Assembly (NCBI GenBank): GCA_947644695.1
Contig: CANSAJ010000004.1
Coordinates: forward strand, 5,750-69,749
Length of the DNA stretch: 64,000 nt
Direction of reading: 5' to 3'
Source: an uncultured Bacillota bacterium
Lineage (GTDB): Bacteria > Bacillota_I > Bacilli_A > RF39 > UBA660
Shown: positions 3,540 to 37,006 of the stretch, piece after piece
Position numbering within the stretch: position 1 is the first letter of the stretch
Layout of the letters: each line of letters opens with the position of its first letter
Notes under the pieces: generated by a model
Told to the model about the DNA's origin: nothing
The model's database searches: none
What the model saw: the letters and a program-made list of their open reading frames with translations, nothing else
Translations under genes and position numbers: made by a program

Positions 3540-3542
3540 TAA

Positions 3543-7792: not shown

Positions 7793-7793
7793 T

Positions 7794-9100: not shown

Positions 9101-9178
9101 TGTAATAAGCTTTGTGAAATGTATTTTAAATTCTAATAAAATAAAGTAGAATAGATTTATAGGTTAGGAAGATGGAAA

Positions 9179-9829: not shown

Positions 9830-9837
9830 AGGTTATT

Positions 9838-18929: not shown

Positions 18930-18998
18930 TATATATTATGTAGATGATGGTATTATGAATGAAATGCGAACTTAATTAGGGTTGAATATTGTTGAAGT
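18930..18998 (+). repeat. Degenerate duplicate of the amidase RBS and 5' coding end (partner at 19155-19222)
   Basis: ATATATTATGTAGATGATGGTATTATGAATGAAATGCGAACTTAATTAGGGTTGAATATTG aligns with ATATATTATTATAGGTGATGATACTATGAATGAAATGCGAGCATTAACAGGGGTTGTAATTG. The copy reads MNEMRT(stop). Confidence 0.6.
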
Positions 18999-19040: not shown

Positions 19041-19179
19041 GGTTGTTTATTTATTTGATTTTTAAGTAAGATTGCTCATGATATTTGATAAATTTTAGAG
19101 TTTGTACTTAATAAATTATATTTGAAAAATAATTAACACTTATTGTGAATTTTCATATATTATTATAGGTGATGATACT

Positions 19180-19454
19180 ATGAATGAAATGCGAGCATTA
19201 ACAGGGGTTGTAATTGATGCAGGGCATGGAGGTGCTGATCCTGGCGCTAGTGGCAACGGAATTATAGAAAAGGATTTGACTTTATTAATTAGTAAGTATA
19301 TGTATGATAGGCTTAGAGAAATGGGAGTGCCTGTTAAGATGACAAGAAGTGGTGATGAAACTTTAGATAGTACAGTTAGATCAAAAAGGATTACAGATGC
19401 GTATGGTACTGGAAAAGATGTACTTGTAATATCGAATCACATAAATGCAGGAGG
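19180..19454 (+). pseudogene. N-acetylmuramoyl-L-alanine amidase (Amidase_3), 5' segment of a gene split by a mobile element
   Basis: GVVIDAGHGGADPGASGNG...VISNHINAGG is the Amidase_3 N-terminal half. After GG the frame runs into element sequence (ATFA-stop at 19470). The reading frame resumes at 30745. Confidence 0.8.
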
Positions 19455-19464
19455 TGCTACATTC
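19455..19464. repeat. Left terminal inverted repeat of the element (TGCTACATTC)
   Basis: Exact reverse complement of 30735-30744. It is preceded by GG (19453-19454). Confidence 0.75.
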
Positions 19465-19540
19465 GCATGATGTGATTAAATTAAAATGTTTAATATATGT
19501 ATTTATATTAACTAAGAATAATTCAATTAAAATTAATTAA

Positions 19541-19565
19541 GAGAACTTTGTTGTTCTCATTTTTG
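19541..19565 (+). terminator. Hairpin plus T-run just inside the element's left end
   Basis: GAGAAC-TTTGTT-GTTCTC followed by ATTTTTG. It would stop read-through from the truncated amidase 5' segment. Confidence 0.4.
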
Positions 19566-19672
19566 TGTTTAAGATTTTTTATCAGTTACTATAAGGTTTA
19601 AAAAATAGATTATATGTCCATATTCTAGAATAATTAATTTTTTTAATTTGTATCATGAATCAAACACGATAT

Positions 19673-19718
19673 TTTAAAGTGCAAAATAACAGTTTAAAGT
19701 GCAAATTTTGCACTTTAA
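19673..19718. promoter_or_regulatory. Direct repeat plus perfect palindrome upstream of the Fic gene (candidate operator)
   Basis: TTTAAAGTGCAAA occurs twice (19673-19685, 19693-19705). The second copy is part of the palindrome TTAAAGTGCAAA-T-TTTGCACTTTAA (19694-19718), about 55 nt upstream of ATG 19775. Confidence 0.4.
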
Positions 19719-19774
19719 GAGTATGAAAAAGTTGCAATGTATGTTATAATGTATATAGTTAGGAGGACTTAGTT

Positions 19775-20833
19775 ATGACCAAAAAAGAAGAATGGAATAT
19801 TGAATTATCACAATATATAAAACAAGGTGAACCAAGTAAAATTGAAAAAGCAAAAAATTGGGAAACTGCTATTGGGTTACAGAAGGTAGATGGTCTTAAT
19901 CCCTCTAAATATTTAATTGGAACTGCTAAAGAACATATTGAAGGAAATATAGATATTAAAGAAGTAGAAAGCAGAATAAATAATTATTATAAGGTTCTTA
20001 ATGAAAGAAAAATAGAAGAACAAGAAAGTACTGAAGAAGCAGATAAAGTATCAGTAAGAATAACTGAGATTTTAAGTGAAAATTCATTTAATTTTAATCC
20101 TACAGAACTTATTAGTATTCATGCAAGATTATTTAAAGGTGTATATAAACATGCTGGTCAATTAAGAGATTATGATATGACAAAGAATGAATGGGTGTTA
20201 AATGATGACACAGTAACTTACGCTCCATATGGAACGCTTATGGCAGCTTTACAATATGATTTTGAACAAGAAAAAAATTTTTCATATAAAGATTTATCAT
20301 TTGATGAATCAATAAAACATTTATGTAAATTTACTTCAAATATTTGGCAAGTTCATCCGTTTTGTGAAGGTAATACGAGAACAACAGCTGTATTTGTTAT
20401 TAAATATTTAAGAACATTTGGATTTAAAATTAATAATGATGTCTTTGCAGAAAATTCTTGGTATTTTAGAAATGCTTTGGTAAGAGCTAATTATAAAAAC
20501 TTTGAAAAAAATGTATTCGAAGATATATCATTTTTAGAAAAATTTTTTTATAATCTTTTATCTAATGCAAATTATGAATTAAAAAATAGATATGTTCATA
20601 TTGATTATGAACAGGAAAATAATCAAGAAAAGACGATACATAACGAATATACATTGGAAGAACAAGCTATTATTAATATTATCAAAAACAATCCAACAAT
20701 TAAACAAGAGGAGATTGCTAAAGAAATTAATAAATCAGTAAGGACTGTAAAAAATAGAATGATAGATATGCAGGAAAAAGGAATAATAGAAAGAAAAAAT
20801 GGGAAAAGAAATGGTGAATGGATTATTTTATAA
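19775..20833 (+). CDS. Fic-domain protein with a C-terminal winged-helix DNA-binding domain
   Basis: Fic core motif HPFCEGNTRTTAVF (HPFx[D/E]GNxR). C-terminal wHTH-like IKQEEIAKEINKSVRTVKNRMIDMQEKGIIERKNGKRNGEW. AGGAGG RBS. Confidence 0.85.
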   Translation: MTKKEEWNIELSQYIKQGEPSKIEKAKNWETAIGLQKVDGLNPSKYLIGTAKEHIEGNIDIKEVESRINNYYKVLNERKIEEQESTEEADKVSVRITEILSENSFNFNPTELISIHARLFKGVYKHAGQLRDYDMTKNEWVLNDDTVTYAPYGTLMAALQYDFEQEKNFSYKDLSFDESIKHLCKFTSNIWQVHPFCEGNTRTTAVFVIKYLRTFGFKINNDVFAENSWYFRNALVRANYKNFEKNVFEDISFLEKFFYNLLSNANYELKNRYVHIDYEQENNQEKTIHNEYTLEEQAIINIIKNNPTIKQEEIAKEINKSVRTVKNRMIDMQEKGIIERKNGKRNGEWIIL

Positions 20834-20859
20834 TAAAAATAATTTAGTTAGGAAGTGAA

Positions 20860-21003
20860 ATGATGGGAAATTTTTATAGGAAATCAATGTTGAAAAAGTG
20901 TAATTTACATATTCATACAATAAAATCGGTATATGATAATGGCAAATATGGTGATGAAGAAAAGTATAATGGTTTATTAAAAAAACTAATAGGTGGTGAA
21001 TAG
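20860..21003 (+). CDS. 47-aa micro-ORF, possibly a remnant of a PHP-domain gene
   Basis: AGGAAGTGA RBS. Its stop lies 1 nt before the hsdR ATG. CNLHIHTIKSVYDNG resembles the N-terminal (D/N)LHxHTxxSxxDG motif of PHP phosphoesterases. Confidence 0.25.
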   Translation: MMGNFYRKSMLKKCNLHIHTIKSVYDNGKYGDEEKYNGLLKKLIGGE

Positions 21004-21004
21004 T

Positions 21005-24000
21005 ATGGAGTTTAGTGAAAATACAAGAGTTAAAATACCAGCTTTAGTACATGCTACAAGGCTTGGCTATAAATACTTATCTTTAAAAGAAGTAAAAGAA
21101 CAATTAGATTCTAGAATGAATATTTTTAAAATTATATTTAAAGATAGCATAAATAAAATTAATAATACTGATTTAAAAGAAAGTGATATTGATAGAATAC
21201 TTGATGAAATAGATATTGAATTAAATAATAAAGATTTAGGTAGAAAATTTTATAAAACATTATTAGATGGATTGGATGGAATTAAATTAATTGATTTCGA
21301 TAATGCTGAGAGAAATACTTTAAATGTTCTGACTGAATTACCATATGAAAATGGAGAAGATAATTTTAGACCAGATGTAATTATGCTTATTAATGGTATG
21401 CCACTAGGGTTTATTGAAGTAAAAAAGCCAAATAATAGAGACGGTATATTAGCTGAGAGAAATAGAATTAATGATAGGTTTCATAACGAAAAATTTAGAA
21501 AATTTATGAATATTACTCAATTATTAGTGTTTTCTAATAATCAAGATTATAATAATGATTCTATTGTACCAATAGAAGGAGCTTTTTATGGTACTCCAAG
21601 TGATAAAAGTGTTTTCTTTAACTGTTTTAGAGAAGAAGAGCCATCTATTTTTGATAAGATTGGTGATATATCAGATTCCGAAGAAAACTTTATATTGAAA
21701 GATAACAATTATGTTTCAATAAAAGGAACTAATGAATATAGTACTAATTTAAGTAGAATGACACCCACAAACAAATTGATAACATCATTATTTCACAAGA
21801 ATAGAATATTTAAATTGTTAAGATATGGAATAACTTATGTAGAAAAAGCTAATAAGAATGGTGTTGTTGAAATACAAAAACATATTATGAGATATCAACA
21901 ATTATTTGCAACTTTTGCTATTGAAAATAAAATATCAGAAGGAGTTAAAAAAGGCATTATTTGGCATACTCAAGGTTCTGGTAAAACTGCATTAGCATAT
22001 TTTAATGTTAAATATTTAACTGATTATTATGCAAAACAATCTAAAGTCGCTAAATTCTATTTTATAGTTGATAGACTTGACTTATTAAAACAAGCTTCTG
22101 AAGAATTTGAAGCTAGAGGTTTAAATGTTGTTAAAGTTAATTCTAGAGAAGACTTTAAGAAAAATATTGCAATGACTGGCGAGGTATCTAAAACAGGCAA
22201 ATTAACTATCAATGTTGTTAATATTCAAAAGTTTTCTGAAGATTCAACTGTAAAAGATTCTGATTATAATATTGATGTACAAAGAATTTACTTTTTAGAT
22301 GAAGCTCATAGGGACTATAATCCTAGAGGAAATTTCTTAGCTAATTTAATGGCATCTGATAGAAATTCAATTAAAATAGCATTAACAGGCACACCTTTAG
22401 TAAATCAAGAAATAGATGGTATTAAATATTCTTCAAAGGATATTTTTGGAGATTATATTCACAAATATTATTATAATAAATCTATTATGGATGGATATAC
22501 TTTAAAATTAATTAGAGAAGGTGTACAAGCTGAATACAAAGTTAAAATAGCTGAAGCACTAGATCAAGTTAGAAAAATATTAAAAGATGCAAAAGAAAGT
22601 GATATAGTATCTCATCCAGTTTACACAGAAGCATTAGCTGAATACATAACAAATGATTTTGGGGCTTCTAGAGTTAGATTTGGTGATGATACTATAGGTG
22701 CTATGATTGTCTGTGATTCACAAGCACAAGCTAGAAATCTATTTAAATCATTAGATAAATATGATTTTTCAAAAATTCTTATTCTTTATAATGAAGATAA
22801 TAAACAAGTTAGAGAAGAAGAAATAAAAGCTTATAAAGAAGGAAAAATAGATATTTTAGTGGTTGATAATATGTTATTAACTGGATTTGATGCACCTAGA
22901 CTTAAAAAATTATATTTAGGAAGAGTAATTAGAGCTCATAACTTATTACAAGCATTAACGAGAGTTAATAGACCATATAAAAATTTTAGACATGGATATG
23001 TTGTTGATTTTGCAGATATTAGAGATGAATTTGATAAAACAAATCAGATATATTTTAATGAATTACAAGAAGAATTAGGAGAAGACTTTGAACATTATTC
23101 AAGTATCTTTGTATCAAGTGAAGATGCTGAAAAAAGAATTTGCGAAATAAAAGATAAATTATTTTTATTTGATTTTTCAAATAAGGAAATATTAAGTTCT
23201 CAAATTAGTTCTTTAGGGAAAAAAGATTTAATTGATTTAAGAAGGTTAGTTAGGGATTATAAAGATTTATATAATATAATTAAATCTTTAAATTATACTG
23301 ATTTGATTGAAAAAGTCGATATATCTAGTGTTGATAATATGTCTAGAGAAATTAATAGAAGATTAGATATTCTTAATTTATCAGAAGATGTTAATAGTAA
23401 TGATGGATCTAATCTCCTAAATACTGTGTTCGAAAATTTGGATATTAAATTTAGGAAAATTAATGAGGGTGAACTCGTTATATCTGATAAATATTTAGAT
23501 AAAATAGAGGAAGTACGAAAAAAGTTTATTGATAATATTGATAAAGATGATAAATACTATACTTCATTAGCGAATGAATTTAATAATTTATTTAAAATGA
23601 AAAACATAGAAGAATTAACCATTGATGATATTAATGATAATATGGAAAAATTAACTGAAATTGAAAAGAGTATTGATCAATTGAATTTAAAGAATAGTAT
23701 GCTTCTTAATAAATTACTTGGTGATGAAAAGTATGTAAAAATTTATAAAAGGGTTAAAGATAGAATATCAGATTTTAGCGATTTAAAATTGGTAGAAATC
23801 CTTTTAAAAATTAAAAATCAAGTTGATGATTTGATTTTAAGAAGAAATGATGTTTTGGATAATGTTGAATTCTTTAAAAGCGAAGTTGGTAGATGTGTTT
23901 ATATGACATCTAATGAAGAAACAAAGATTATTGATGAAATAGATTTCTTTGTAGACTTAATAGTAACAATGTATGAATTTGAAAGGAGGGTAAGTAATAA

Positions 24001-24007
24001 TGGATAA
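21005..24007 (+). CDS. hsdR: Type I restriction enzyme, R subunit
   Basis: About 1000 aa. The N-terminal nuclease region contains the motif GFIEVKKP. Helicase motif I is HTQGSGKTALA, motif II YFLDEAHR, and a later motif is LTGFDAPRL. Confidence 0.9.
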   Translation: MEFSENTRVKIPALVHATRLGYKYLSLKEVKEQLDSRMNIFKIIFKDSINKINNTDLKESDIDRILDEIDIELNNKDLGRKFYKTLLDGLDGIKLIDFDNAERNTLNVLTELPYENGEDNFRPDVIMLINGMPLGFIEVKKPNNRDGILAERNRINDRFHNEKFRKFMNITQLLVFSNNQDYNNDSIVPIEGAFYGTPSDKSVFFNCFREEEPSIFDKIGDISDSEENFILKDNNYVSIKGTNEYSTNLSRMTPTNKLITSLFHKNRIFKLLRYGITYVEKANKNGVVEIQKHIMRYQQLFATFAIENKISEGVKKGIIWHTQGSGKTALAYFNVKYLTDYYAKQSKVAKFYFIVDRLDLLKQASEEFEARGLNVVKVNSREDFKKNIAMTGEVSKTGKLTINVVNIQKFSEDSTVKDSDYNIDVQRIYFLDEAHRDYNPRGNFLANLMASDRNSIKIALTGTPLVNQEIDGIKYSSKDIFGDYIHKYYYNKSIMDGYTLKLIREGVQAEYKVKIAEALDQVRKILKDAKESDIVSHPVYTEALAEYITNDFGASRVRFGDDTIGAMIVCDSQAQARNLFKSLDKYDFSKILILYNEDNKQVREEEIKAYKEGKIDILVVDNMLLTGFDAPRLKKLYLGRVIRAHNLLQALTRVNRPYKNFRHGYVVDFADIRDEFDKTNQIYFNELQEELGEDFEHYSSIFVSSEDAEKRICEIKDKLFLFDFSNKEILSSQISSLGKKDLIDLRRLVRDYKDLYNIIKSLNYTDLIEKVDISSVDNMSREINRRLDILNLSEDVNSNDGSNLLNTVFENLDIKFRKINEGELVISDKYLDKIEEVRKKFIDNIDKDDKYYTSLANEFNNLFKMKNIEELTIDDINDNMEKLTEIEKSIDQLNLKNSMLLNKLLGDEKYVKIYKRVKDRISDFSDLKLVEILLKIKNQVDDLILRRNDVLDNVEFFKSEVGRCVYMTSNEETKIIDEIDFFVDLIVTMYEFERRVSNNG

Positions 24008-25652
24008 GGAAAGACAATTAATAGTTAAAACATCAAGAATGATAGATGATCTAAAAGCAGTATGTGGTGAATATGGATTATCTAATACGGGAAATGAATA
24101 CAAAATTATTGCTGATTCTTTCCTTTATAAATATTTAAATGATAAATTCTTATATGAATTTAAAAGAATAGATAAAAATCTATCTAAGGGTTCTACAACA
24201 AAAGAAGTAGAAGAAGAAATAATGAAACTTAGTCCTGTAGAAATGTCTAAATATAGATATGGATTAGGTGCAAATGTAGCATATATTAGAAAGGAATTTT
24301 TGGTTAGTTATTTATTTAATAACAAAAATTCAACTACTCCTAAGTTTTATGAATTGTTTGATAATGCTTTAGATGGAATTTCAAACGATAATATTGATAT
24401 ATTCTCAGTAAGAACTGGTAGTAAAGAAAAAATAAAATTATTTAGTCCTATTTCTCAATATATTATTGAATCAAATAAGAAGAATGATTTTGCTAAAGCT
24501 ATAATTGATAAATTAGTAGAATTTTCTTTTGATGAAGTATTTGAAGAAAAATATGATTTCTTTGCAACTATATTTGAATATTTAATTAAAGATTATAATA
24601 AAGATTTTGGTAAGTATGCAGAATACTATACACCTAATTCAATTGCTAGAATTATTGCTAAAATATTAGTACCTGATACTGACAAAGTAAGAAATGTATC
24701 TATATATGATCCAGCAGCTGGATCTGGTACATTATTATTAGCTTTAGCACATGAAATAGGTGAAGAAGACTGCACATTATATACTCAAGATATTTCTCAA
24801 AAATCAAATGAATTTTTAAGATTAAACTTGATATTAAATAATTTAGTACATTCATTGGATAATGTTGTACATGGTAATACATTATTAAATCCTGCGCATT
24901 TAAATAAAGAAGGGAATAAATTAGCACAATTTGATTACATAGTAAGTAATCCGCCTTTTAAAACTGATTTTAGTGATTATAGAGATAAGTTAGAGGATGA
25001 TAAATATTCAGATAGATTTTTTGCTGGTGTTCCAACAATACCAAAAAAAGAAAAAGATAAAATGTCGATATATCTTCTTTTTATACAGCATATAATTTAT
25101 TCTTTAAAAGACAATGGGAAAGCTGCTATAGTTGTTCCAACTGGTTTTTTGACAACTCAAAATAAAATAGAATTCAAAATAAGAAAATATTTAATAGAGA
25201 ATAATTACATTGAAGGAATCATTTCAATGCCATCTAATATTTTTGCCAACACAGGAACGAATGTTTCGATTATATTTATTAGTAGAATTAAAATTAATCA
25301 TAATGTATTTATGCTAGATGTTACATCTTTTGGAAAAAAAGAAAAAGATGGAAAAAATCAAAGAACAATATTATCAAAAAACGAACTAAATACAATTGTG
25401 GATTTATATACAAAACAAGAAGTCAATAAAAAAATTAGTGTCTTAACAGATACTGATACAATAAAAAATAATAAATTTTCATATGCACCTAATCAATATT
25501 TTGTTGTGGACATAGTCAAAGATAATATTTCAAAAGAAAGATTTAAACTGGATATGTCGAATTTTAGAAGAGAATTAAAGGATAGCTTATCTAAATCAGA
25601 AAAATTATATAAAGAGTTGCTTGAGGAATTGGAGAAAATAAAATATGAATAA
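24000..25652 (+). CDS. hsdM: Type I R-M N6-adenine DNA methyltransferase, M subunit
   Basis: SAM-binding motif IYDPAAGSGTLL and catalytic VSNPPFK. It overlaps hsdR by 8 nt. Confidence 0.9.
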   Translation: MDKERQLIVKTSRMIDDLKAVCGEYGLSNTGNEYKIIADSFLYKYLNDKFLYEFKRIDKNLSKGSTTKEVEEEIMKLSPVEMSKYRYGLGANVAYIRKEFLVSYLFNNKNSTTPKFYELFDNALDGISNDNIDIFSVRTGSKEKIKLFSPISQYIIESNKKNDFAKAIIDKLVEFSFDEVFEEKYDFFATIFEYLIKDYNKDFGKYAEYYTPNSIARIIAKILVPDTDKVRNVSIYDPAAGSGTLLLALAHEIGEEDCTLYTQDISQKSNEFLRLNLILNNLVHSLDNVVHGNTLLNPAHLNKEGNKLAQFDYIVSNPPFKTDFSDYRDKLEDDKYSDRFFAGVPTIPKKEKDKMSIYLLFIQHIIYSLKDNGKAAIVVPTGFLTTQNKIEFKIRKYLIENNYIEGIISMPSNIFANTGTNVSIIFISRIKINHNVFMLDVTSFGKKEKDGKNQRTILSKNELNTIVDLYTKQEVNKKISVLTDTDTIKNNKFSYAPNQYFVVDIVKDNISKERFKLDMSNFRRELKDSLSKSEKLYKELLEELEKIKYE

Positions 25653-26817
25653 AATATCTGTTGGCAAAGATTTATATGTTAAAGGAAGAATTGGATGGAG
25701 AGGTCTTAATAAAGATGAATATTTAGATCAAGGTGATTATAAAATAATAAATGGAACTGCATTAATGGATGGATTTATTGATTGGAATAAATGTGGCTAT
25801 ATTACAAAGAAAAGATATGACGAATCTCCTGAAATAATGTTAGAAGAAAATGATATTTTAATAACAAAAGATGGTACAATTGGGAAAATAGGATATGTTA
25901 AAAAAATTGCATGTAAATGTAGCGTGGCATCCGGAATATTTGTTGTAAGAAATACCAAAAAAGATATTTTGGATACTGATTATTTATATCACTTATTAAA
26001 TAGCCATATCTTTAAAGATTTTGTTTTTAGAAATAAAGCAGAAGGCAGTACTATTAATCACTTATATCAAAGGGAGTTAGATAAGTTTGTTATTGAGTTG
26101 CCAAGTATAGATATACAAAGAAAAGTATCGTCAATACTAAATAAAATAGATGACCTTATAAACAATAATATATATACAAATAGAATAATTGTTAATAGTA
26201 TTAAAGAAAAGTATGATTATATTTTTTATAACCTTGATAATAAATATAACGATTTGGTATTTTCTAAGGAATTAAATAGAAATATTATAAAATCATGGAA
26301 AGTAGTAAAATTAGATGCAGTATTAAAAAAAATTCCAAAGAATAAGCAGTATAAAGTAAGTGAATATTTAGATCATGGTGAATACCCCATAATGGATCAA
26401 AGTTCAGACTATATATGTGGCTTTTGTAATGAAAAAGAAAATTTATTGGATTTAGGAGATTGTGTTATATTTGGAGATCATACTAGAAAATTAAAATATG
26501 TGAATTTTCCATTTGCTCGAGGTGCTGATGGAACAAAGATATTGTGTTCTAGTGAAAAAAATCTTAGTAATTATCTTATGTACCTTCAATTATTAGATTA
26601 TAATATATCTAATCAGGGTTACTCAAGATATTATAAGTATTTAAAGGAAAAATATGTATTTATACCAGATGATTATACTTCAAATATATTTAATAAAGGA
26701 ATTAGACAGCATATGAATGTTTTAAGGAATAACATTGAATTGAATATAGCATTAGGTAGATTAAAAATGTATATTTTACCGTTATTGATGAATGGTCAGT
26801 TAAAAATAGAAGATTAA
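25645..26817 (+). CDS. hsdS: Type I R-M specificity subunit (two target-recognition domains)
   Basis: 390 aa. Central conserved spacer LPSIDIQRKVSSILNKIDDLINNN and a C-terminal coiled region. It overlaps hsdM by 8 nt. Confidence 0.85.
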   Translation: MNKISVGKDLYVKGRIGWRGLNKDEYLDQGDYKIINGTALMDGFIDWNKCGYITKKRYDESPEIMLEENDILITKDGTIGKIGYVKKIACKCSVASGIFVVRNTKKDILDTDYLYHLLNSHIFKDFVFRNKAEGSTINHLYQRELDKFVIELPSIDIQRKVSSILNKIDDLINNNIYTNRIIVNSIKEKYDYIFYNLDNKYNDLVFSKELNRNIIKSWKVVKLDAVLKKIPKNKQYKVSEYLDHGEYPIMDQSSDYICGFCNEKENLLDLGDCVIFGDHTRKLKYVNFPFARGADGTKILCSSEKNLSNYLMYLQLLDYNISNQGYSRYYKYLKEKYVFIPDDYTSNIFNKGIRQHMNVLRNNIELNIALGRLKMYILPLLMNGQLKIED

Positions 26818-26903
26818 TTTCGAAGTTATAAGATAAAAGTAGCCGCAAAAATGATATGGTTTCTTTTATTGACAAGTTCAATGATCTTCTTTTTGTTTAT
26901 TTG

Positions 26904-26912
26904 TGGTATAAT
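26904..26912 (+). promoter_or_regulatory. Extended -10 (TGgTATAAT) placed to start transcription at the candidate retron a1 repeat
   Basis: TGGTATAAT ends 4 nt before the a1 repeat (26917). A TTGACA at 26869 is too far away (32 nt) to pair with it. Confidence 0.35.
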
Positions 26913-26916
26913 TCTA

Positions 26917-27063
26917 TTAAGGGATTTGCATATCACGAGCGATACGCAGTGTGCTTAACAATGGTTACATTGTTAAATATAATATTTTAGGACCTGTGAC
27001 ATATTATATATTAACTTTTAAATAATTATTCAATAACTATAAATGTTAGAAATCCCTTCTTAA
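26917..27063 (+). ncRNA. Candidate retron msr-msd non-coding RNA
   Basis: Inverted repeats TTAAGGGATTT (26917-26927) and AAATCCCTT(CT)TAA (27050-27063) bracket the region just upstream of the RT gene. A G (26928) follows a1. Perfect 9-bp hairpin TTAACAATG-GTTA-CATTGTTAA (26955-26976), a second 9-bp stem ATATAATAT/ATATTATAT (26977-27009), and a locally GC-richer segment at 26921-26955. Confidence 0.45.
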
Positions 27064-27075
27064 GTTGGTGGTAGG

Positions 27076-28737
27076 ATGTATAATGAATTTGGGCGAATTC
27101 AACACTTTAAAAATATTGAAACAAAATATGATTTACTATATGTTTTAAATGTAAGTTCTAAAAAATATAACTATTTGATTTATCAGAAAAAAAATTTATA
27201 TACATCATTTTATATAAATAAAAAACAAGGTGGATTTAGAAAAATTCTATCTCCGTGTTTTGATTTAAAGAAAATTCAAAAAGAATTAAACATAATATTG
27301 AGAAATAATTATGAGTTTAATAAGGAAACTGTTCATGGTTTTGTTAAAGATCATAGTATAAAAACTAATGCAAATGTTCATAAAGAGGCTAATTATGTAG
27401 TAAATATCGATTTAAAAAACTTTTTTGATACTATTCATTTTGGAAGAGTTAGAGGAATGTATATGAAATCACCCTTTAATTTTTCAGACTATATTGCAAC
27501 AAATTTAACAAAAGTAGTATGCTATGAAAAGAAATTACCACAAGGTGCTCCAACATCTCCAACAATTTCTAACATTATTTGTTATAGAATGGATAGAGAA
27601 CTAGCACATTTATGTAATAAATATAATTGTAGATATACACGGTATGCTGATGATATTACGATTTCAACAAAAATGCTTTATTTACCAAAGGAAATAGCTA
27701 AGTTCAGTAATGGACAAGTAATTTTGTCTAATAATATTATAGATATAATAAAAAAAGAAGGGTTTATTATTAATTATGATAAACTTAAGATTAGCCCTAA
27801 ATCTAATAGGCAAGAGGTAACAGGATTAATTGTGAATAAAAAGGTAAATGTTCAAAAGGTATATATTAAAAAATTAAGAGCATTATTAAATAATGTTTCA
27901 AAATATGGTTTTTATTTAGAAGGATGTAAATATTTTAAAAAAAGTTTGAATGATTGTTCAAAAAAGGAGTTTGTAGAACATAAATTTATTAATGTATTAA
28001 AAGGCAAAATTGAATTTTTAAAAATGGTAAGAGGTCTTGATGATTATGTATATATAAAATACGCATCTTTATTTAATGAATTAATTGATTATGATTATTT
28101 TGATACCGATTATGGATTGACTATGAAAGAATTTATAGAGAAAAGGGTATATCCGTTGATAAGTTATGATGAAATGGTACAAGGTACGTGCTTTATGGTG
28201 GATGAAATTGGTATGATTACATCGACTCATGTATTAATTTCACCACAATCTTTTATTAATGAAAAAAAATATAAAGAAATAGAATTAAAAGATAAATTTA
28301 ATTTTTGTGATGTAGGAAGTAAGCCTTTCTATATTTTTGATCATTATAATAGAAAATATATAATAAACCCTGAAATAACAAGGGAACAAATAAATTCAGA
28401 TATACTATTTTATAATTGTCTACCTTCTAAAAAAAGATTTAAAATTAATACGAATTATGAACCCAAAATTGGAGAGAAGGTTTATATTGCAGGATATGGA
28501 GAATTTAAGGATTTTAAAACATCGTCAATTAATTATATTGAAAGTAATGTAACAGGCTATACAGAGTTTTTAGGAAGAAAGGTCGTGTGTATTAATAGTA
28601 AAATATATCATGGTATGAGCGGAGGGCCAGTATTAAATTCTAATCGTGAAGTAATTGGAATAATATATGCAGGACTTAATTTGGATGATAATGATAAAGT
28701 TATTTCTAAAACAAATGGTTTTGTATTATTTCAATAA
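27076..28737 (+). CDS. Retron-type reverse transcriptase fused to a C-terminal trypsin-like serine protease domain
   Basis: RT motifs NIDLKNFFDTI, LPQGAPTSP and YADD (aa 190-193), plus the retron-typical RQEVTGLIVN. C-terminal region (aa ~355-553) has TSTHVL (His385), SDILF (Asp442) and HGMSGGPVL (Ser515). Confidence 0.85.
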   Translation: MYNEFGRIQHFKNIETKYDLLYVLNVSSKKYNYLIYQKKNLYTSFYINKKQGGFRKILSPCFDLKKIQKELNIILRNNYEFNKETVHGFVKDHSIKTNANVHKEANYVVNIDLKNFFDTIHFGRVRGMYMKSPFNFSDYIATNLTKVVCYEKKLPQGAPTSPTISNIICYRMDRELAHLCNKYNCRYTRYADDITISTKMLYLPKEIAKFSNGQVILSNNIIDIIKKEGFIINYDKLKISPKSNRQEVTGLIVNKKVNVQKVYIKKLRALLNNVSKYGFYLEGCKYFKKSLNDCSKKEFVEHKFINVLKGKIEFLKMVRGLDDYVYIKYASLFNELIDYDYFDTDYGLTMKEFIEKRVYPLISYDEMVQGTCFMVDEIGMITSTHVLISPQSFINEKKYKEIELKDKFNFCDVGSKPFYIFDHYNRKYIINPEITREQINSDILFYNCLPSKKRFKINTNYEPKIGEKVYIAGYGEFKDFKTSSINYIESNVTGYTEFLGRKVVCINSKIYHGMSGGPVLNSNREVIGIIYAGLNLDDNDKVISKTNGFVLFQ

Positions 28738-28918
28738 TTTTTTTGTTTACTTCTTGGTGTATAAACTTGTAATTTTAGAAATATGCAAGTCCTTTTTTGC
28801 GAACTTTTACATTTTATAAATATGTCAAATTGTAATTAGGTTGCTTATTTGAAGAGAATAAATTATCTAATAAAATAGTATTTTAAATCATACCTTTTAA
28901 ATAGGAGGTATGTTTTTT

Positions 28919-29044
28919 ATGCCAATAAATAAACAATTAAAAATAAATAATGAATATTTTAGTGATAAAGATTTTCAAGATATTATATATAATTATTTAA
29001 TAAAAATGTTTAAAATATCAAATAATGATTTTGAATTATTCTAA
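28919..29044 (+). CDS. 41-aa micro-ORF between the RT and the recombinase
   Basis: AGGAGG lies 11 nt upstream of ATG 28919. No motif was recognised. Confidence 0.25.
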   Translation: MPINKQLKINNEYFSDKDFQDIIYNYLIKMFKISNNDFELF

Positions 29045-29092
29045 AAATGTGTTATAAATATAATGTCTTGGAGAATATTTCATATGAACTAA

Positions 29093-30700
29093 ATGGATAG
29101 GAGGAATATGTATAACAATTTAGTTAGTCCTACAAATTATAAAGTAGGAATATATATAAGATTGTCTCAAGAAGATTCTGATAAAAAATATGAATCAGAT
29201 AGTGAGAGCGTTGTTAATCAAAGAAATATATTAACATCTTATTTAAAAGCTAATAATTATATTTTAATAGAGGAATATATAGATGATGGATATTCAGGAA
29301 CAAATTTTGATAGACCTGGATTTCATAAATTAATTGAAGATATTAACGATAAAAAAATAAATATGGTAATAGTAAAAGATTTATCTAGGCTAGGTAGAGA
29401 TCATGTTATGACAGGATATTATATAGAAACGTTTTTTCCAGAAAATGATGTTAGGTTTATTTCAATAATGGAAAGCTATGATAGTGCTAAAAGGCAAGCA
29501 AGTAATGACTCATCAACTTTTATTGTTGCTTGTAATGATTATTATAGTAAGCAAAATTCTTATAAAATTAGAGATGTATTGCATTCTAAAAAAGTTGCAG
29601 GTCAATTTGTTGGAAGCAAACCATCTTATGGATATATGAGAGATTCTAATGATAAAGGACATTTAATACCTGATCCAAAAGTTGCTGATAATGTTAGAAA
29701 TATATTTAAATGGTTTTCTGAAGGATTAAATCTAAAAGAAATAGCAGATAAATTAAATGATTTAGGAATTCAAACGCCTAGTACTTATAAAAATAGTCCT
29801 AATAAAATAGAAAAGTGGAATTATGATACTGTTAAGTCGATATTGCAAAATAGGATTTATACAGGTGATATGATCCAGAATAAGGAAATGAAAATAAATT
29901 ATAAATCTAAAAAGCGAATACATTTAGATGAGCAAAATTGGATAATAGTTGAAAATACTCATGAGCCTTTAATTGATAAAGCAACTTTTTTTGAAATAAA
30001 TAATAAAGGTAGATATACAATACCTAAAACAAAAACAAAGAGAGAAAAAAGATTATTAGAAAATTTATTTGTTTGTAAAGAATGTGGTAATAGCCTAACA
30101 ATTAATTACCGAGAATCAAAAGATTGTTGGAGTATTAATTGTAATAGATTTACTAGATATTCTGTCAATAATAGATGTGTTTCACATTATATGCTTTATA
30201 ATCCATTAGAAGAGTTAATCCTAAAAAGAGTAAAATCTACTTTAGATAAATTTATGAAGAAATTAGATATAGATAATTTAGCTAATGAAGTTTATAAAAG
30301 ATTAAGTAATGAAAGTAATAATAACTTTAAGGAGTTAGATAAACTTGTTGAAAAAAGAGAAAAATGTCATAAAAAGCTAGTAATAATGTATAATGATAAA
30401 CTTGAAAACAAAATTGAATCTTATACTTATGAAATACTTAAAGAAAGCATAGAAAAAGAAATACAAGAATTAACTTCCAAAATAGAAAAGTTAGAAAATC
30501 TTAAAAGTCAAAAAGTAGTATATAATACTAAATTATCAGATGTCGTTGATAAAATAAAAAAATTATTGGATTTGGATCATCCAACTCGAGAACTTTTATT
30601 AGATGTTATAGATAAAATTGTGATAGATAAAGATAGAAATATAGAAATTTTCTACAAATTTGGTATTGCTAAAACTGATAAATTAAATAATAAAAATTGA
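29093..30700 (+). CDS. Large serine recombinase
   Basis: N-terminal resolvase-type catalytic region VGIYIRLSQED (Ser), DDGYSGTNFDRPGF and KDLSRLGRD. Recombinase domain, zinc ribbon CKECGN...C and C-terminal coiled coil. ATG 29108 is an alternative start. Confidence 0.9.
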   Translation: MDRRNMYNNLVSPTNYKVGIYIRLSQEDSDKKYESDSESVVNQRNILTSYLKANNYILIEEYIDDGYSGTNFDRPGFHKLIEDINDKKINMVIVKDLSRLGRDHVMTGYYIETFFPENDVRFISIMESYDSAKRQASNDSSTFIVACNDYYSKQNSYKIRDVLHSKKVAGQFVGSKPSYGYMRDSNDKGHLIPDPKVADNVRNIFKWFSEGLNLKEIADKLNDLGIQTPSTYKNSPNKIEKWNYDTVKSILQNRIYTGDMIQNKEMKINYKSKKRIHLDEQNWIIVENTHEPLIDKATFFEINNKGRYTIPKTKTKREKRLLENLFVCKECGNSLTINYRESKDCWSINCNRFTRYSVNNRCVSHYMLYNPLEELILKRVKSTLDKFMKKLDIDNLANEVYKRLSNESNNNFKELDKLVEKREKCHKKLVIMYNDKLENKIESYTYEILKESIEKEIQELTSKIEKLENLKSQKVVYNTKLSDVVDKIKKLLDLDHPTRELLLDVIDKIVIDKDRNIEIFYKFGIAKTDKLNNKN

Positions 30701-30734
30701 TTTTTTTTAGTTAGTCTACCTACCTATGCACCTA

Positions 30735-30744
30735 GAATGTAGCA
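30735..30744. repeat. Right terminal inverted repeat of the element (GAATGTAGCA)
   Basis: Exact reverse complement of 19455-19464. It is followed by GG (30745-30746). Confidence 0.75.
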
Positions 30745-31887
30745 GGTGGCGATGGTGCAGAAGTAATATATGCCCTTCGTAATAATTCTAGATTTTCTGA
30801 TTTAATTTTAGAAGAACTAGCTAATGAAGGACAGAATATTAGAAAAAATTTTCAACAACGACTTCCTTCTAATCCAATAAAAGACTACTATTTTATACAT
30901 CGTAATACTCCTGATACAGAAGCTGTGATAGTGGAATATGGTTTTCTTGATAGTACTAAAGATGATGTGAATCAGCTTAAAAATGATTGGAAGGATTATG
31001 CTGAAGCTGTTGTGAGAGCTATTGCTAAATATAAGAATATTTCATATACAGCGCCTTCTGGAGGGGATTATTATACAGTTCAAAAGGGAGATTCATTATG
31101 GAGTATTGCTACTAAATATGGTTTAACAGTTAACGAACTTAAAGAACTTAATGGTATTACTAATAATGTAATACATGTTGGACAGAATCTTAAAGTTAAA
31201 GTTGAGAGTGAAAAACCTGTTGAAGATTATCTTGTTTATACAGTAAAGAGTGGAGATTCATTATGGAAAATAGCAAGTAAATATGATACAACTGTAGCTA
31301 CACTTAAAAGTATAAATAATTTAAAAAGCGATAATTTAACAATTAATCAACAGTTATTAGTTCCTAAAAATAAAGATATGGATATAACTATAGATCAAGA
31401 TGATAAAGGTATAACCTATGTGGTAAAAAGTGGAGATTCACTATGGAAGATAGCTAATAGTTATGGGGTTAGTGTTGATAAAATAAAAAGTGCTAATAAT
31501 TTGAAAAGTGATGTATTAAGTGTTGGTCAGAAATTATTGATACCAGTAAGTGACGTGAATGTTGAAGAAAAACCTACTGAACCAACAAGTGGAGTTAGTT
31601 ATGTAGTTGTTAGTGGAGATAATTTATATTCTATAGCTAATAAATATGGTGTTAGTGTAGATGATATAAAAAGACTTAATAATCTTAGTAGTAATACACT
31701 TAAAATAGGTCAAGTTTTAAAAATTCCTGGAACAGATCAGTATGTAACTTATACAGTAAAGAGTGGAGATTCATTATGGAGTATTGCTAATAAATACGGT
31801 GTTAGTGTAAATGAACTTAAAAATATTAATAATTTAGAAGGAAGTTTATTAAGTATTGGTCAAAAGTTATTAATTCCAACAAAATAA
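30745..31887 (+). pseudogene. N-acetylmuramoyl-L-alanine amidase, 3' segment (rest of Amidase_3 plus five LysM repeats)
   Basis: The frame is open from 30745: GGDGAEVIYALRNNSRF...VIVEYGFLDS. Five LysM units follow (Y.V..GDSLW.IA.KYG..V..LK..N.L....L..GQ.L.IP). It is in frame with the ORF-track start 30925. Confidence 0.8.
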
Positions 31888-31949: not shown

Positions 31950-32372
31950 TTAATATATTTGTGGACAAATGCCAGGATCTGGTTGATAGAAGCAGTGGTT
32001 CTTATATCTTCCAGCAAAAGCTTGGTCATACCAAGTATTTTTACAAGAGGCTCCACTTGCAGGTGCATAGAACCATAAAGCATTAGTTGCTGGATGATAA
32101 TATTCACCTCTTAAAACTCTTTTAGCTAGTTCTTTTTCTTTAGTAGTAGCCCCTTTATAAAATAGTGAACTTTGTGTACCGCTGAATTGGTTTTTCTGGT
32201 ATACAGCATCTGTAACAGACCTTATATTTTTAAAGGTTAAGCAGTTCGCAAGTGCTCGGTTAACAATAACATTCCCTACCATTAACATACCTAAATCTCC
32301 TTCACCCACAGCTTCAGCGCGCATAAGTCTTGCACATAAATCTAATTCTTTATCTGTATAATTTAATAACAT
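31950..32372 (-). CDS. SleB-type cell wall hydrolase domain protein
   Basis: ARLMRAEAVGEGDLGMLMVGNVIVNR...AVYQKNQFSG matches the Hydrolase_2 (SleB/CwlJ) domain. Confidence 0.8.
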   Translation of the reverse strand: MLLNYTDKELDLCARLMRAEAVGEGDLGMLMVGNVIVNRALANCLTFKNIRSVTDAVYQKNQFSGTQSSLFYKGATTKEKELAKRVLRGEYYHPATNALWFYAPASGASCKNTWYDQAFAGRYKNHCFYQPDPGICPQIY

Positions 32373-36611: not shown

Positions 36612-36658
36612 CTTATTATGAAGATTATTTCATATAATTATTTATAAGGGAGTAGTAT

Positions 36659-37006
36659 ATGGTTAATGATGCTTATGAAGATTTTATGTCTCAGGATTTT
36701 TCTTGTTTAGCTGATTGGATTTATTCACTTAATGCTTATGAATTTACTTTAGTTGCTACATTAATTGGTTTTATAATTGCTCCATCTTTATCTATTAATC
36801 AACAGAATTCTTTGGGTAACTTTTTTGAGCAAATTGGGCAGACTTTGTTAACAATAACATCTCAAAATCAAACTATTAAACATAAGAAAAAGCAGTTTTC
36901 TACTATTAATACTGATAAAGAGACAGATTTAGAGGTCGAGATAGAAAGAATAAAGGCGGAATTATTACAACTAAGAAGAGATAGTTTGATGAATGATAAT
37001 ATATAA
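36659..37006 (+). CDS. Small membrane-associated hypothetical protein
   Basis: 115-aa ORF with one hydrophobic helix (FTLVATLIGFIIAPSL) and a charged C-terminus. Confidence 0.45.
   Translation: MVNDAYEDFMSQDFSCLADWIYSLNAYEFTLVATLIGFIIAPSLSINQQNSLGNFFEQIGQTLLTITSQNQTIKHKKKQFSTINTDKETDLEVEIERIKAELLQLRRDSLMNDNI

What the first reader, a model, noticed from the sequence alone, without database searches (positions are those of the whole stretch)
19180..31887. Cell-wall amidase gene split by a serine-recombinase element with a near-perfect palindromic attP core; precise excision would restore the ORF
Seen: the Amidase_3 ORF stops making sense after ...NHINAGG (19454) and resumes in frame at 30745 (GGDGAEVIYAL...), followed by five LysM repeats. 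The junctions read GCAGGA-GG-TGCTACATTC on the left and GAATGTAGCA-GG-TGGCGAT on the right. The circularised element would therefore carry GAATGTAGCA-GG-TGCTACATTC, which is 10-nt perfect inverted arms around a non-palindromic GG. The restored host site would read AAT GCA GGA GGT GGC GAT GGT (NAGGGDG), in frame. Established: large serine recombinases cut at a central dinucleotide between inverted half-sites. In Bacillus and Clostridium, elements with such recombinases (skin and related intervening elements) interrupt sporulation genes and excise in the mother cell. Inference: this may be a similar developmentally excised element, since the gene neighbours a SleB-type hydrolase. Alternatively it is simply an integrated island that inactivated the amidase.
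Basis: partly seen in the sequence, partly recalled or inferred. Interest (0 to 1): 0.78.

Follow-up and report, generated by a model that had tools for sequence, protein, structure and literature searches.

The report
Recombinase island splitting a sporulation amidase gene
An 11.3-kb mobile island carrying anti-phage defence genes sits exactly inside a cell-wall amidase gene of an uncultured gut bacterium, and its promoter signals suggest it is cut out during spore formation to restore the gene, as the known skin, SPbeta and gin elements are.

Summary
An 11,292-bp element (19455-30746) splits a 471-aa Amidase_3 + 5xLysM gene at codon 92. Joining the two GG cores restores ...SNHINAGGGDGAEVIYAL, exactly as in intact orthologues.

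The element encodes a large serine recombinase (LSR) and only defence cargo: a Fic/PDC-S72 protein, a type I restriction-modification system and a type XI retron.

It belongs to a large family. I found 36 more loci, in uncultured gut Bacilli related to order RF39, split at the same codon. Each has a 45-59% identical LSR upstream of the 3' fragment. About 100 more distant LSRs show no such link. One relative is split at a second site by an unrelated LSR.

All 37 readable 3' fragments have open reading frames, and dN/dS in a 16-sequence subset is 0.04-0.15, as for intact genes.

The amidase has no signal peptide. It carries a conserved sigmaK-type promoter motif (AC-N16/17-CATAnAnTA) and lies next to a cwlJ-like gene, with cotJB/cotJC in the same window. 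A conserved 28-44-aa ORF just upstream of the LSR carries a sigmaE-type motif (ATA-N16-CATAnnnT), like the excision factors SprB and CD1234.

Mother-cell excision is therefore the best reading (about 0.6), but it is inferred, not shown. This is a new member of a known kind.

The parts
19136..19162 (+). SigmaK-type promoter motif of the amidase gene: AC (19136-7), 16-nt spacer, CATATATTA (19154-62), then RBS AGGTGAT
   Evidence: AC-N16/17-CATAnAnTA is present upstream of all 10 orthologues examined. CATAnAnTA+RBS occurs 3 times in the window against 0.28 expected. Consensus taken from PMC3789822.
19180..19454 (+). 5' fragment of the amidase gene (codons 1-91 plus GG of codon 92); no signal peptide
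   Evidence: The Amidase_3 domain starts at residue 10.
19424..19485 (+). attL (core GG at 19453-19454)
19455..30746 (+). Integrated element, 11,292 bp, 24.2% GC, all genes on the + strand
19775..20833 (+). Fic domain + winged-helix protein (PADLOC candidate defence family PDC-S72)
   Evidence: Pfam Fic 1.4e-11 and HTH_24; PDC-S72 4.7e-124.
20993..26817 (+). Type I restriction-modification system: hsdR 20993-24007, hsdM 24000-25652, hsdS 25645-26817
27076..28737 (+). Retron-type reverse transcriptase fused to a trypsin-like protease (PADLOC RT-Protease_XI)
   Evidence: RVT_1 + Trypsin_2; PDLC02959 3.6e-149. No ncRNA was identified.
28870..28896 (+). SigmaE-type promoter motif upstream of the small ORF: ATA (28870-2), 16-nt spacer, CATACCTT (28889-96)
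   Evidence: ATA at spacer 16 in 12/19 non-redundant family members, against 0-3 at other spacers. It overlaps a hairpin + T-run at 28889-28912.
28919..29044 (+). Conserved small ORF (41 aa, MPINKQ...DFQDIIYNYLIKMF...); candidate recombination directionality factor
   Evidence: The F-x-D/E-L-I-x-x-Y-L-I motif ORF is found 41-84 nt upstream of the LSR in 42/53 clade loci against 2/106 outside the clade. Alignment A1. Only synonymous changes among close copies.
29093..30700 (+). Large serine recombinase, 535 aa
   Evidence: Resolvase + Recombinase + Zn_ribbon_recom. Nearest solved structures: TnpX N-terminal domain and SPbeta SprA/YokA, residues 14-496, E 2.5e-20. Weak NCBIfam matches to CcrB and XisF.
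30716..30777 (+). attR (core GG at 30745-30746)
   Evidence: The same ...GGT|GGn GAn GG junction is seen in 36 other split loci.
30747..31887 (+). 3' fragment of the amidase gene (rest of Amidase_3 + 5 LysM)
31950..32372 (-). cwlJ/sleB-family cell-wall hydrolase (140 aa, no signal peptide); conserved neighbour of the amidase, with CATATAATA+RBS upstream at 32395

Best explanation
This is a gene-intervening genomic island of the skin / SPbeta / gin kind.

Shown: an 11.3-kb element inserted by a large serine recombinase (LSR) at a GG crossover. The site lies inside the conserved NHINAGG|GDGAE-coding stretch of a chromosomal Amidase_3-LysM gene of an uncultured, predicted spore-forming gut Bacilli lineage related to RF39. 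The element carries only the recombination module and anti-phage cargo (a Fic/PDC-S72 protein, a type I R-M system, a type XI retron). attL x attR recombination at the GG would remove it without scar and rebuild the 471-aa ORF.

Inferred:
1. The amidase is a late mother-cell product. It has no signal peptide, a conserved sigmaK-type promoter motif, and is linked to a cwlJ-like gene. It would act like CwlC in mother-cell lysis, or as a spore-associated lytic enzyme.
2. The 41-aa ORF upstream of the LSR is the excision (directionality) factor, transcribed from a sigmaE-type promoter, possibly together with the LSR.
3. The element would therefore be excised only in the terminal mother cell, before sigmaK expresses the rebuilt gene. 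The forespore chromosome would keep the island and its defence genes.

The island is one of a horizontally exchanged family whose LSR clade is dedicated to this attB.
For: Structure:
- Exact junctions, 10-nt perfect attP arms and in-frame restoration.
- Amidase_3 spans the junction and 5 LysM repeats follow.
- Intact orthologues read NAGGGDG across the join.
- LSR domains and full-length similarity to SprA.
- A second element with both ends available (L014, 9,626 bp) has an attP symmetric about the same GG.

Family:
- Eight species-representative genomes and 28 metagenome or IMG/VR loci are split at the same codon. Where it is on the contig, an LSR 45-59% identical to this one lies upstream of the 3' fragment.
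- About 100 loci with LSRs below 40% identity show no adjacent downstream 3' fragment.
- The LSR tree does not follow the host gene tree. L002 and L028 have about 100% identical LSRs but 89% identical amidases; L002 and L011 have 99% identical amidases but 56% identical LSRs.

The gene stays functional:
- All 37 readable 3' fragments (36 relatives plus the window) are open frames of 249-428 codons.
- In 10 split and 6 intact sequences, dN/dS is 0.04-0.15 for split-split pairs (excluding pairs with the 47%-identical L024, where dS is saturated) and 0.03-0.16 for intact-intact pairs.
- 9 of 21 species representatives are split.

Sporulation link:
- AC-N16/17-CATAnAnTA lies upstream of 10/10 orthologues.
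- CATAnAnTA+RBS occurs only 3 times in the window (0.28 expected): at the amidase, the cwlJ-like gene and the cotJ operon.
- CotJB and a CotJC-like Mn catalase are encoded in the window.
- The cwlJ-like gene is linked to the amidase in most relatives, usually with a CATAnAnTA or GAATAnAnTA element before its RBS.
- RF39 is predicted to form spores (PMC10868615).

Excision control:
- The conserved small ORF is found in 42/53 clade loci against 2/106 outside and behaves as coding sequence.
- ATA-N16-CATAnnnT precedes it in 12/19 non-redundant members.
- SigmaE and sigmaK share the -10 element and differ in -35: ATA for sigmaE, AC for sigmaK (PMC3789822).

Precedents:
- SprB is 58 aa and has a mother-cell promoter directly upstream (PMC4191935).
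- CD1234 is controlled by sigmaE and SpoIIID (PMC5025042).
- gin is a non-phage island with an R-M system in gerE (PMC5595907).

Convergence: an unrelated LSR (28% identity, with DUF4368) splits the same gene at codon ~14 in L007.
Against: - No excision product was seen. The exact attP junction is absent from the metagenome and IMG/VR collections searched. This is a weak negative.
- The host is uncultured. Its sporulation is a published prediction for RF39, and I assign the window to that lineage only through amidase relatives. No sigE, sigK or spo0A gene lies in the window.
- Promoter assignments rest on analogy with B. subtilis and C. difficile. The -10 motifs sit only 4-6 nt from the RBS, which implies very short leaders.
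- 7 of 19 small-ORF promoters lack ATA at spacer 16.
- In the window, the small ORF's -10 and RBS also form a terminator-like hairpin, so that stretch has a second possible reading.
- The amidase -10 also scores as a sigma-70-like promoter (TTAACA-17-TATATT, 10/12).
- The elements move horizontally and turn over fast. Low dN/dS and open frames could therefore reflect recent insertions rather than selection on a split gene.
- From my own knowledge: LSR phages often integrate inside genes with no developmental role, for example Bxb1 in groEL1.
Confidence: 0.6

Rival explanations
1. This is an ordinary integrative, mobilisable defence island. The LSR clade happens to use a conserved amidase sequence as attB. 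Carriers simply lack the amidase, and excision occurs only sporadically or on transfer, unconnected with development.
For: LSR and host gene phylogenies are discordant, and near-identical LSRs occur in different host species, which shows active horizontal movement. The cargo is defence genes, typical of mobile islands. No excision junction was found. From my own knowledge, many LSR elements integrate inside ORFs without any developmental role.
Against: The target gene is under purifying selection yet split in 9 of 21 species representatives, with no decayed 3' fragment among 37. Conserved mother-cell-type promoter motifs lie on both the gene and the element's small ORF. A second, unrelated LSR has converged on the same gene. 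Every LSR element described in the papers read here that lies within a mother-cell sporulation gene excises during sporulation.
Confidence: 0.26
2. This is a reversible switch of the 'active lysogeny' type, triggered by a cue other than sporulation, such as DNA damage, phage attack or a host-gut signal. Excision would restore the amidase in a subpopulation.
For: The Listeria comK prophage precedent is cited in PMC4191935. SprB is also induced by mitomycin C. The hairpin at 28889-28912 could gate read-through from the retron module into the small ORF and LSR.
Against: The window element has no recognisable repressor or SOS module. The conserved motifs match mother-cell sigma factors. The amidase has no export signal, so restoring it in a growing cell has no obvious use (inference).
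Confidence: 0.1
3. This is an artefact: the two fragments belong to different genes, the contig is an assembly chimera, or the amidase is a prophage endolysin remnant.
For: Amidase_3 + LysM without a signal peptide is also an endolysin architecture (my own knowledge). The source is probably a metagenome assembly.
Against: One Amidase_3 domain spans the junction. 36 independent loci from different assemblies show the same junction. The gene keeps its synteny with the cwlJ-like gene across hosts with 42-100% amidase identity, and no phage genes lie around it.
Confidence: 0.02

Closest known systems
gin element in gerE of Bacillus cereus ATCC 10987 (PMC5595907)
   Same: A non-prophage genomic island with lower GC, carrying a restriction-modification system and serine recombinase(s). 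It is inserted inside the coding sequence of a mother-cell sporulation gene and is excised precisely to rebuild it.
   Different: gin is 28.6 kb with three serine recombinases and interrupts a 225-bp regulator gene. This element is 11.3 kb with one LSR and interrupts a peptidoglycan amidase. It adds a retron and a Fic protein, lives in an uncultured RF39-like host, and its excision has not been observed.
SPbeta prophage in spsM of B. subtilis, with SprA (LSR) and SprB (58-aa RDF) (PMC4191935, PMC5499854)
   Same: An LSR homologous over its full length, plus a very small accessory ORF with a mother-cell sigmaE/sigmaK-type promoter directly upstream. The interrupted gene acts late in the mother cell.
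   Different: SPbeta is a 134-kb active phage (size from my own knowledge). The small ORF here is 28-44 aa, shows no detectable similarity to SprB, and sits immediately upstream of the LSR. Its RDF function is untested.
skin elements in sigK (B. subtilis SpoIVCA; C. difficile CD1231 + RDF CD1234, PMC5025042)
   Same: LSR-mediated excision in the terminal mother cell. In C. difficile, timing is set by a sigmaE/SpoIIID-dependent RDF while the LSR is expressed constitutively. sigK-intervening elements are reported across many Bacilli and Clostridia.
   Different: The target is a sigma factor gene, so excision there gates a whole regulon. Here the target is a single lytic enzyme. The window element has no phage genes, whereas skin elements are phage remnants.
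XisF / fdxN element of Anabaena heterocysts (NCBIfam NF041201, weak match)
   Same: An LSR removes an intervening element from a gene in a terminally differentiated cell (my own knowledge).
   Different: A cyanobacterial system in a different developmental programme. Sequence similarity is weak (84 bits against a cut-off of 375).
CwlC of B. subtilis (mother-cell lysis amidase; my own knowledge)
   Same: An N-terminal Amidase_3 domain without a signal peptide, C-terminal wall-binding repeats, and a sigmaK-type promoter.
   Different: CwlC uses SPOR-type repeats, not LysM, and orthology was not tested. The best NCBIfam amidase match here is CwlD, below its cut-off.

Membership tests
Large serine recombinase (LSR) integrative element | The recombinase has an N-terminal resolvase catalytic domain, a recombinase domain and a zinc-ribbon domain | tested here: met
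   PF00239 2.8e-21, PF07508 1.5e-23, PF13408 7.8e-06. Aligns with SprA over residues 14-496.
Large serine recombinase (LSR) integrative element | att sites share a 2-bp non-palindromic crossover flanked by inverted half-sites in attP, with no target duplication beyond the core | tested here: met
   GG in attL and attR, with 10/10 inverted arms in the predicted attP. The attP of L014 is symmetric about the same GG. All other readable junctions end in GGT.
Large serine recombinase (LSR) integrative element | The recombinase catalyses attP x attB integration alone and attL x attR excision with an RDF | not testable with these tools
   Needs an in vivo or in vitro recombination assay.
Sporulation gene-intervening element (skin / SPbeta / vfbin / vrin / gin / yin) | Inserted within the coding sequence, and precise excision rebuilds an intact ORF | tested here: met
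   In-silico restoration gives 471 aa matching intact orthologues across the join.
Sporulation gene-intervening element (skin / SPbeta / vfbin / vrin / gin / yin) | The interrupted gene is a mother-cell-expressed sporulation gene | tested here: inconclusive
   A sigmaK-type motif is conserved in 10/10 orthologues. The same -10+RBS arrangement occurs only at the cwlJ-like gene and the cotJ operon in the window. The protein has no signal peptide and the gene is linked to cwlJ. No expression data exist.
Sporulation gene-intervening element (skin / SPbeta / vfbin / vrin / gin / yin) | The host forms endospores | tested here: inconclusive
   CotJB, CotJC-like and CwlJ-like genes lie in the window. 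RF39 is predicted to sporulate (PMC10868615). The host is uncultured, and no sigE, sigK or spo0A gene lies within the window.
Sporulation gene-intervening element (skin / SPbeta / vfbin / vrin / gin / yin) | Excision occurs during sporulation, in the mother cell only | not testable with these tools
   No attP junction was found in public contigs. This needs junction PCR or read mapping in sporulating against vegetative cells.
Sporulation gene-intervening element (skin / SPbeta / vfbin / vrin / gin / yin) | The element encodes an excision factor or recombinase under a mother-cell sigma factor | tested here: inconclusive
   A conserved small ORF lies upstream of the LSR (42/53 clade loci against 2/106 outside), preceded by ATA-N16-CATAnnnT in 12/19 non-redundant members. 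Its function and promoter use are untested.
Prophage | Structural, packaging or lysis genes | tested here: not met
   The window element encodes only Fic, HsdRMS, a retron RT-protease, the small ORF and the LSR. Relatives show repressor, replication and methylase genes but no structural genes in the stretches held.
Retron type XI (RT-protease) defence system (cargo) | A reverse transcriptase fused to a trypsin-like protease, plus an msr/msd ncRNA | tested here: inconclusive
   The protein matches PDLC02959 at 3.6e-149 over its full length. No ncRNA was identified: Rfam finds nothing there. A sigma-70-like promoter lies at 26955-26983.
Type I restriction-modification system (cargo) | Adjacent R, M and S subunit genes | tested here: met
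   HSDR_N/SWI2_SNF2, N6_Mtase and Methylase_S. PADLOC REase_I, MTase_I (6e-208) and Specificity_I.

The most novel reading that the evidence does not exclude
The LSR clade and its 28-44-aa upstream ORF form a previously undescribed excision module. The ORF would be the smallest known recombination directionality factor, switched on by sigmaE. With it, a widespread and interchangeable family of anti-phage defence islands rides in the germ line of uncultured RF39-like gut spore-formers. The islands are parked inside a late mother-cell amidase gene and are removed only in the disposable mother cell. Two unrelated recombinase lineages have converged on this gene as a safe harbour.
Probability: 0.35. 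Interest if true: 0.72.

Novelty: new member of a known kind. Interest (0 to 1): 0.62.

Why it matters
If the inference holds, four things follow.

1. The gene-intervening-element phenomenon would extend beyond cultured Bacillus and Clostridium to the uncultured, genome-reduced RF39-like gut Bacilli. It would also supply indirect genomic evidence that these organisms run a sigmaE-to-sigmaK mother-cell programme.
2. A peptidoglycan amidase would join the list of target genes. I found no such report in the papers searched.
3. A sporulation gene would be shown to act as a shared docking site for swappable defence islands carrying a retron, an R-M system, a Fic protein and other cargo.
4. There would be dozens of natural LSR variants that all use one conserved attB with different attP arms, plus a candidate mini-RDF. 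That is useful raw material for studying LSR site recognition and directionality.

A practical point also follows. Many 'LysM proteins' of 361-403 aa in protein databases are 3' fragments of this split gene.

Tried and rejected
- An exact search for the predicted attP junction in metagenome contigs and IMG/VR found nothing, so there is no direct evidence of a circular or free form.
- The window's LSR is not on record as an exact protein in the contig index, so the source contig and other copies of this very element could not be traced.
- Rfam found only two tRNAs in the window and no retron ncRNA or other RNA in the element.
- Co-divergence of LSR and host gene, which would show long vertical inheritance, is rejected. 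The trees disagree and turnover is fast. This weakens the dN/dS argument, because insertions may be recent.
- AC-N16/17-CATAnnnTA counted over the whole window is not enriched (8 found, 8.0 expected). Only the conservation across orthologues and the -10+RBS arrangement are informative.
- The prophage-endolysin reading of the amidase is rejected because of conserved chromosomal synteny with the cwlJ-like gene and the absence of phage neighbours.
- A sigmaA reading of the amidase promoter (TTAACA-17-TATATT) was considered. Across orthologues the invariant bases are AC and CATA, not TTG, so the sigmaK reading fits better. It is not excluded.
- The small ORF was not searched against the large protein databases or modelled. 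It is too short, and complexes cannot be predicted with the tools at hand.

Full report
**1. The observation**

- The window reads GCAGGA-GG-TGCTACATTC at 19447-19464 and GAATGTAGCA-GG-TGGCGAT at 30735-30753. The two GG cores are at 19453-4 and 30745-6.
- The ORF starting at 19180 encodes ...VISNHINAGG and then runs into four foreign codons and a stop.
- Joining the sequence at the GG gives a 1416-nt ORF of 471 codons, reading ...NHINAGGGDGAEVIYAL....
- Pfam places a single Amidase_3 domain over residues 10-185, across the junction at residue 92, followed by five LysM repeats.
- The predicted attP has 10/10 complementary arms around GG. The attB is only weakly symmetric.
- The intervening 11,292 bp (24.2% GC) carry six large genes, all on the + strand.

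**2. Contents of the element**

- 19775-20833: Fic + winged-helix protein, PADLOC PDC-S72, 4.7e-124.
- 20993-26817: a complete type I R-M system (R, M and S subunits).
- 27076-28737: reverse transcriptase fused to a trypsin-like protease, PADLOC RT-Protease_XI, 3.6e-149.
- 29093-30700: a 535-aa large serine recombinase (LSR) with Resolvase + Recombinase + Zn-ribbon domains.
- The LSR aligns over residues 14-496 with SPbeta SprA (9dxh, E 2.5e-20). Its N-terminal domain aligns with TnpX.
- There are no phage structural genes, so this is a small defence island with a recombination module, not a prophage.

**3. The host gene is real and is usually intact**

- A search with the restored protein returned many full-length orthologues of 467-471 aa at 74-77% identity, and closer ones at 86-90%. 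The intact ones I retrieved read NHINAGGGDGAEVIYAL.
- In GTDB species-representative genomes the gene occurs in 21 loci. All come from uncultured 'Bacilli', 'Clostridiales' or 'Firmicutes' MAGs and from Clostridium sp. CAG:628. CAG:628 is GTDB order RF39, family UBA660.
- A cwlJ/sleB-family gene is linked to the amidase in most of them.

**4. The element is one of a family dedicated to this site**

- Several database 'proteins' are 3' fragments that begin exactly at the junction behind different leader peptides: MQGHSG|GGDGAEV, MNSS|GGDGAEV, MIKEF...YPSP|GGDGAEV and MR|GGDGAEV.
- Their contigs show an LSR directly upstream of the fragment, with different cargo.
- Of the 21 species-representative loci, 8 are split at this codon (L011-L016, L023, L024).
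- A profile of eight of these LSRs recovered 48 more loci with LSRs of at least 45% identity from metagenome and IMG/VR contigs. In 28 of them the amidase 3' fragment starts at residue 93 downstream of the LSR, with the junction ...GGT|GGn GAn GG. Most of the rest lack downstream sequence. A few with 6 kb of downstream DNA show no fragment there, and two carry the 5' fragment on the other strand.
- None of about 100 loci with LSRs below 40% identity has such an adjacent downstream fragment.
- Element-side arms fall into several sequence types, as expected for diverged LSRs using one attB.
- For L014 both ends are present. The element is 9,626 bp and its attP is symmetric about the same GG.
- LSR and host-gene relationships disagree. 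L002 and L028 have about 100% identical LSRs in hosts whose amidases are 89% identical. L002 and L011 have 99% identical amidases but 56% identical LSRs. A strain whose amidase is 98% identical to the window's carries a different element (L028). The elements are therefore mobile and replace one another at this hot spot.
- In L007 the same gene is split at a second site, codon ~14 (the HGG motif). The 9.1-kb element there has an LSR only 28% identical to the window's and carries a DUF4368 tail.

**5. Is the split gene dead?**

- All 37 readable 3' fragments (36 relatives plus the window) are uninterrupted frames of 249-428 codons. The differences reflect LysM copy number.
- I compared 10 split and 6 intact sequences. 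dN/dS is 0.04-0.15 for split-split pairs, leaving out pairs with the 47%-identical L024 where dS is saturated, and 0.03-0.16 for intact-intact pairs.
- This includes close pairs that are both split: L002/L011 at 0.040 and L014/L015 at 0.051.
- Because turnover is fast, this does not prove selection in the split state.
- Even so, a conserved gene that is interrupted in 9 of 21 species representatives without any visible decay argues that interruption does not cost the function.

**6. The sporulation link**

- The amidase has no room for a signal peptide.
- Upstream of all 10 orthologues examined (50-100% identity) lies AC, then 16 nt (9/10) or 17 nt (1/10), then CATAnAnTA, then 4-6 nt and the RBS.
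- In C. difficile and B. subtilis, sigmaE and sigmaK promoters share the -10 element (for example CATATAAT). They differ at -35: ATA for sigmaE and AC for sigmaK (PMC3789822).
- In the 64-kb window, CATAnAnTA followed by an RBS occurs three times (0.28 expected): before the amidase, before the cwlJ-like gene, and before an operon encoding CotJB and a CotJC-like Mn catalase.
- Most cwlJ-like genes of the relatives carry a CATAnAnTA or GAATAnAnTA element at the same place.
- RF39 genomes are predicted to be capable of sporulation (PMC10868615).
- The amidase is thus best read as a late mother-cell product. It would be a CwlC-like lysis enzyme or a LysM-anchored spore lytic enzyme. This is inference.

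**7. A conserved small ORF with a sigmaE-type motif**

- A short ORF of 28-44 aa ends 41-84 nt upstream of the LSR start. It has the core motif F-x-D/E-L-I-x-x-Y-L-I. In the window it is at 28919-29044.
- It is found in 42 of 53 clade loci but in only 2 of 106 loci with more distant LSRs.
- Close copies differ only by synonymous changes, and codon position 2 is the most conserved.
- It is preceded by CATAnnnT a few bases before its RBS, or in some members directly before its ATG.
- ATA lies exactly 16 nt upstream of that -10 in 12 of 19 non-redundant sequences, against 0-3 at any other spacing. AC never occurs at spacer 16 or 17.
- The relaxed pattern CATAnnnT + RBS + start occurs five times in the window (0.84 expected): at the three host genes above, this ORF, and one unknown ORF at 36659.
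- The arrangement matches SPbeta SprB (58 aa, with a mother-cell promoter directly upstream while sprA is expressed vegetatively; PMC4191935). It also matches C. difficile CD1234 (controlled by sigmaE and SpoIIID, with a constitutively expressed LSR; PMC5025042).
- In the window, the -10 and RBS also form a hairpin followed by a T-run (28889-28912; -12.8 kcal/mol for the 66-nt stretch folded, z = -2.5). It could terminate read-through from the retron gene and would be absent from a transcript starting at the proposed promoter. This last point is speculation.

**8. Mechanism proposed**

- Shown: an LSR element integrated at a GG core within the amidase ORF; an attB shared by a whole LSR clade; in-silico scarless restoration.
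- Inferred: during sporulation, sigmaE in the mother cell drives the small ORF, and perhaps the LSR with it. The ORF acts as the directionality factor, and the LSR recombines attL x attR. The 11.3-kb circle is lost with the mother cell, and sigmaK then expresses the rebuilt amidase. The forespore keeps the island and hence its retron, R-M and Fic defences.
- I put this at about 0.6. I put plain inactivation by an ordinary island at about 0.26, a non-sporulation switch at about 0.1, and an artefact at about 0.02.

**9. Comparison with what is known, and verdict**

- The closest known case is the gin element in B. cereus gerE, a non-phage island with an R-M system and serine recombinases that is excised during sporulation (PMC5595907).
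- Other members of the kind are skin in sigK, SPbeta in spsM, vfbin, vrin and yin.
- The features that could be tested in silico are met: insertion within a coding sequence, an LSR, a 2-bp core with inverted arms, and exact restoration.
- The defining behaviour, excision in the mother cell, is untestable here. The status of the host and of the gene rests on motifs and on a published prediction.
- I found no report of an amidase as a target gene in the papers searched.
- Verdict: a new member of a known kind. It is interesting for its host lineage, its prevalence, its defence cargo, the candidate mini-RDF, and the convergence of two recombinase lineages on one gene.

Noticed in passing
window 18931-18991 vs 19155-19216: An 81% identical copy (63 nt) of the amidase -10 region, RBS and first ~12 codons lies directly after the jetD stop codon, 224 bp upstream of the real gene start. 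It may be a relic of another insertion or duplication at the 5' end of the same gene.
   Followed up: partly
window 10955-18927: A complete type II Wadjet system lies immediately upstream of the amidase: JetA-like TIGR02677, JetB-like TIGR02678, JetC (1359 aa) and JetD. The amidase locus is therefore flanked by defence genes on the outside as well.
   Followed up: partly
window 3543-7792: A PLD-nuclease/helicase protein (partial match to dnd_restrict_1) is followed by a DndD/SMC-like ATPase. This is probably another defence pair, and the neighbouring ORFs at 1008-3539 have no family match.
   Followed up: no
L007 764-852 and 9999 onward (element ~853-9998): The same amidase gene is split at a second site (codon ~14, the HGG motif) by a 9.1-kb element. 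Its LSR is only 28% identical to the window's and carries DUF4368, and a DUF4160 ORF follows it. A 47-aa ORF (MEVVYNVKYKF...ELKDLFNRKLLNIIIK...) lies upstream of that LSR, with no CATA motif.
   Followed up: partly
window 36631-37006: A 115-aa ORF with no family match carries the same CATATAAT-type motif + RBS as the amidase, cwlJ-like and cotJ genes. It is a candidate uncharacterised mother-cell or spore protein.
   Followed up: no
window 54874-56070 (- strand): A cotJ-like operon: a 203-aa protein with a C-terminal CotJB domain, then a CotJC-like Mn catalase, preceded by CATAGAATA + RBS at 56070. It is a marker of spore-coat genes in this host.
   Followed up: partly
window 28889-28912: A hairpin + T-run (terminator-like) is formed by the small ORF's -10 motif pairing with its own RBS. 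It lies 150 nt downstream of the retron RT gene and may insulate the recombination module from cargo transcription.
   Followed up: partly
L002 5410, L028 4287, L036, L070 (element right ends): In one element subfamily the attP arm supplies an in-frame ATG (MQGHSG...). Gene callers therefore annotate 386-aa 'LysM proteins' that are really 3' fragments of the split amidase. Such fragments of 361-403 aa are common in the protein database.
   Followed up: partly
L002 vs L028; L002 vs L011: LSRs about 100% identical sit in hosts whose amidases are only 89% identical, and LSRs 56% identical sit in hosts with 99% identical amidases. This indicates recent horizontal transfer and replacement at one site.
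   Followed up: yes
window 26955-27075: The best sigma-70-like promoter of the region (TTAACA-17-TATAAT, 11/12) lies about 90 nt upstream of the retron RT gene. No msr/msd RNA was identified, and Rfam finds nothing there.
   Followed up: no
L017, L024 (record titles): Two loci with this Bacilli-type amidase/cwlJ pair are labelled as Muribaculaceae MAGs. These contigs are probably mis-binned.
   Followed up: no
L014 attP vs window attP: Both attP sites contain the 8-mer GAATGTAG / CTACATTC in inverted pairs. In the window it abuts the GG core. In L014 it lies 11-22 nt out and in swapped orientation. The significance is unknown.
   Followed up: no
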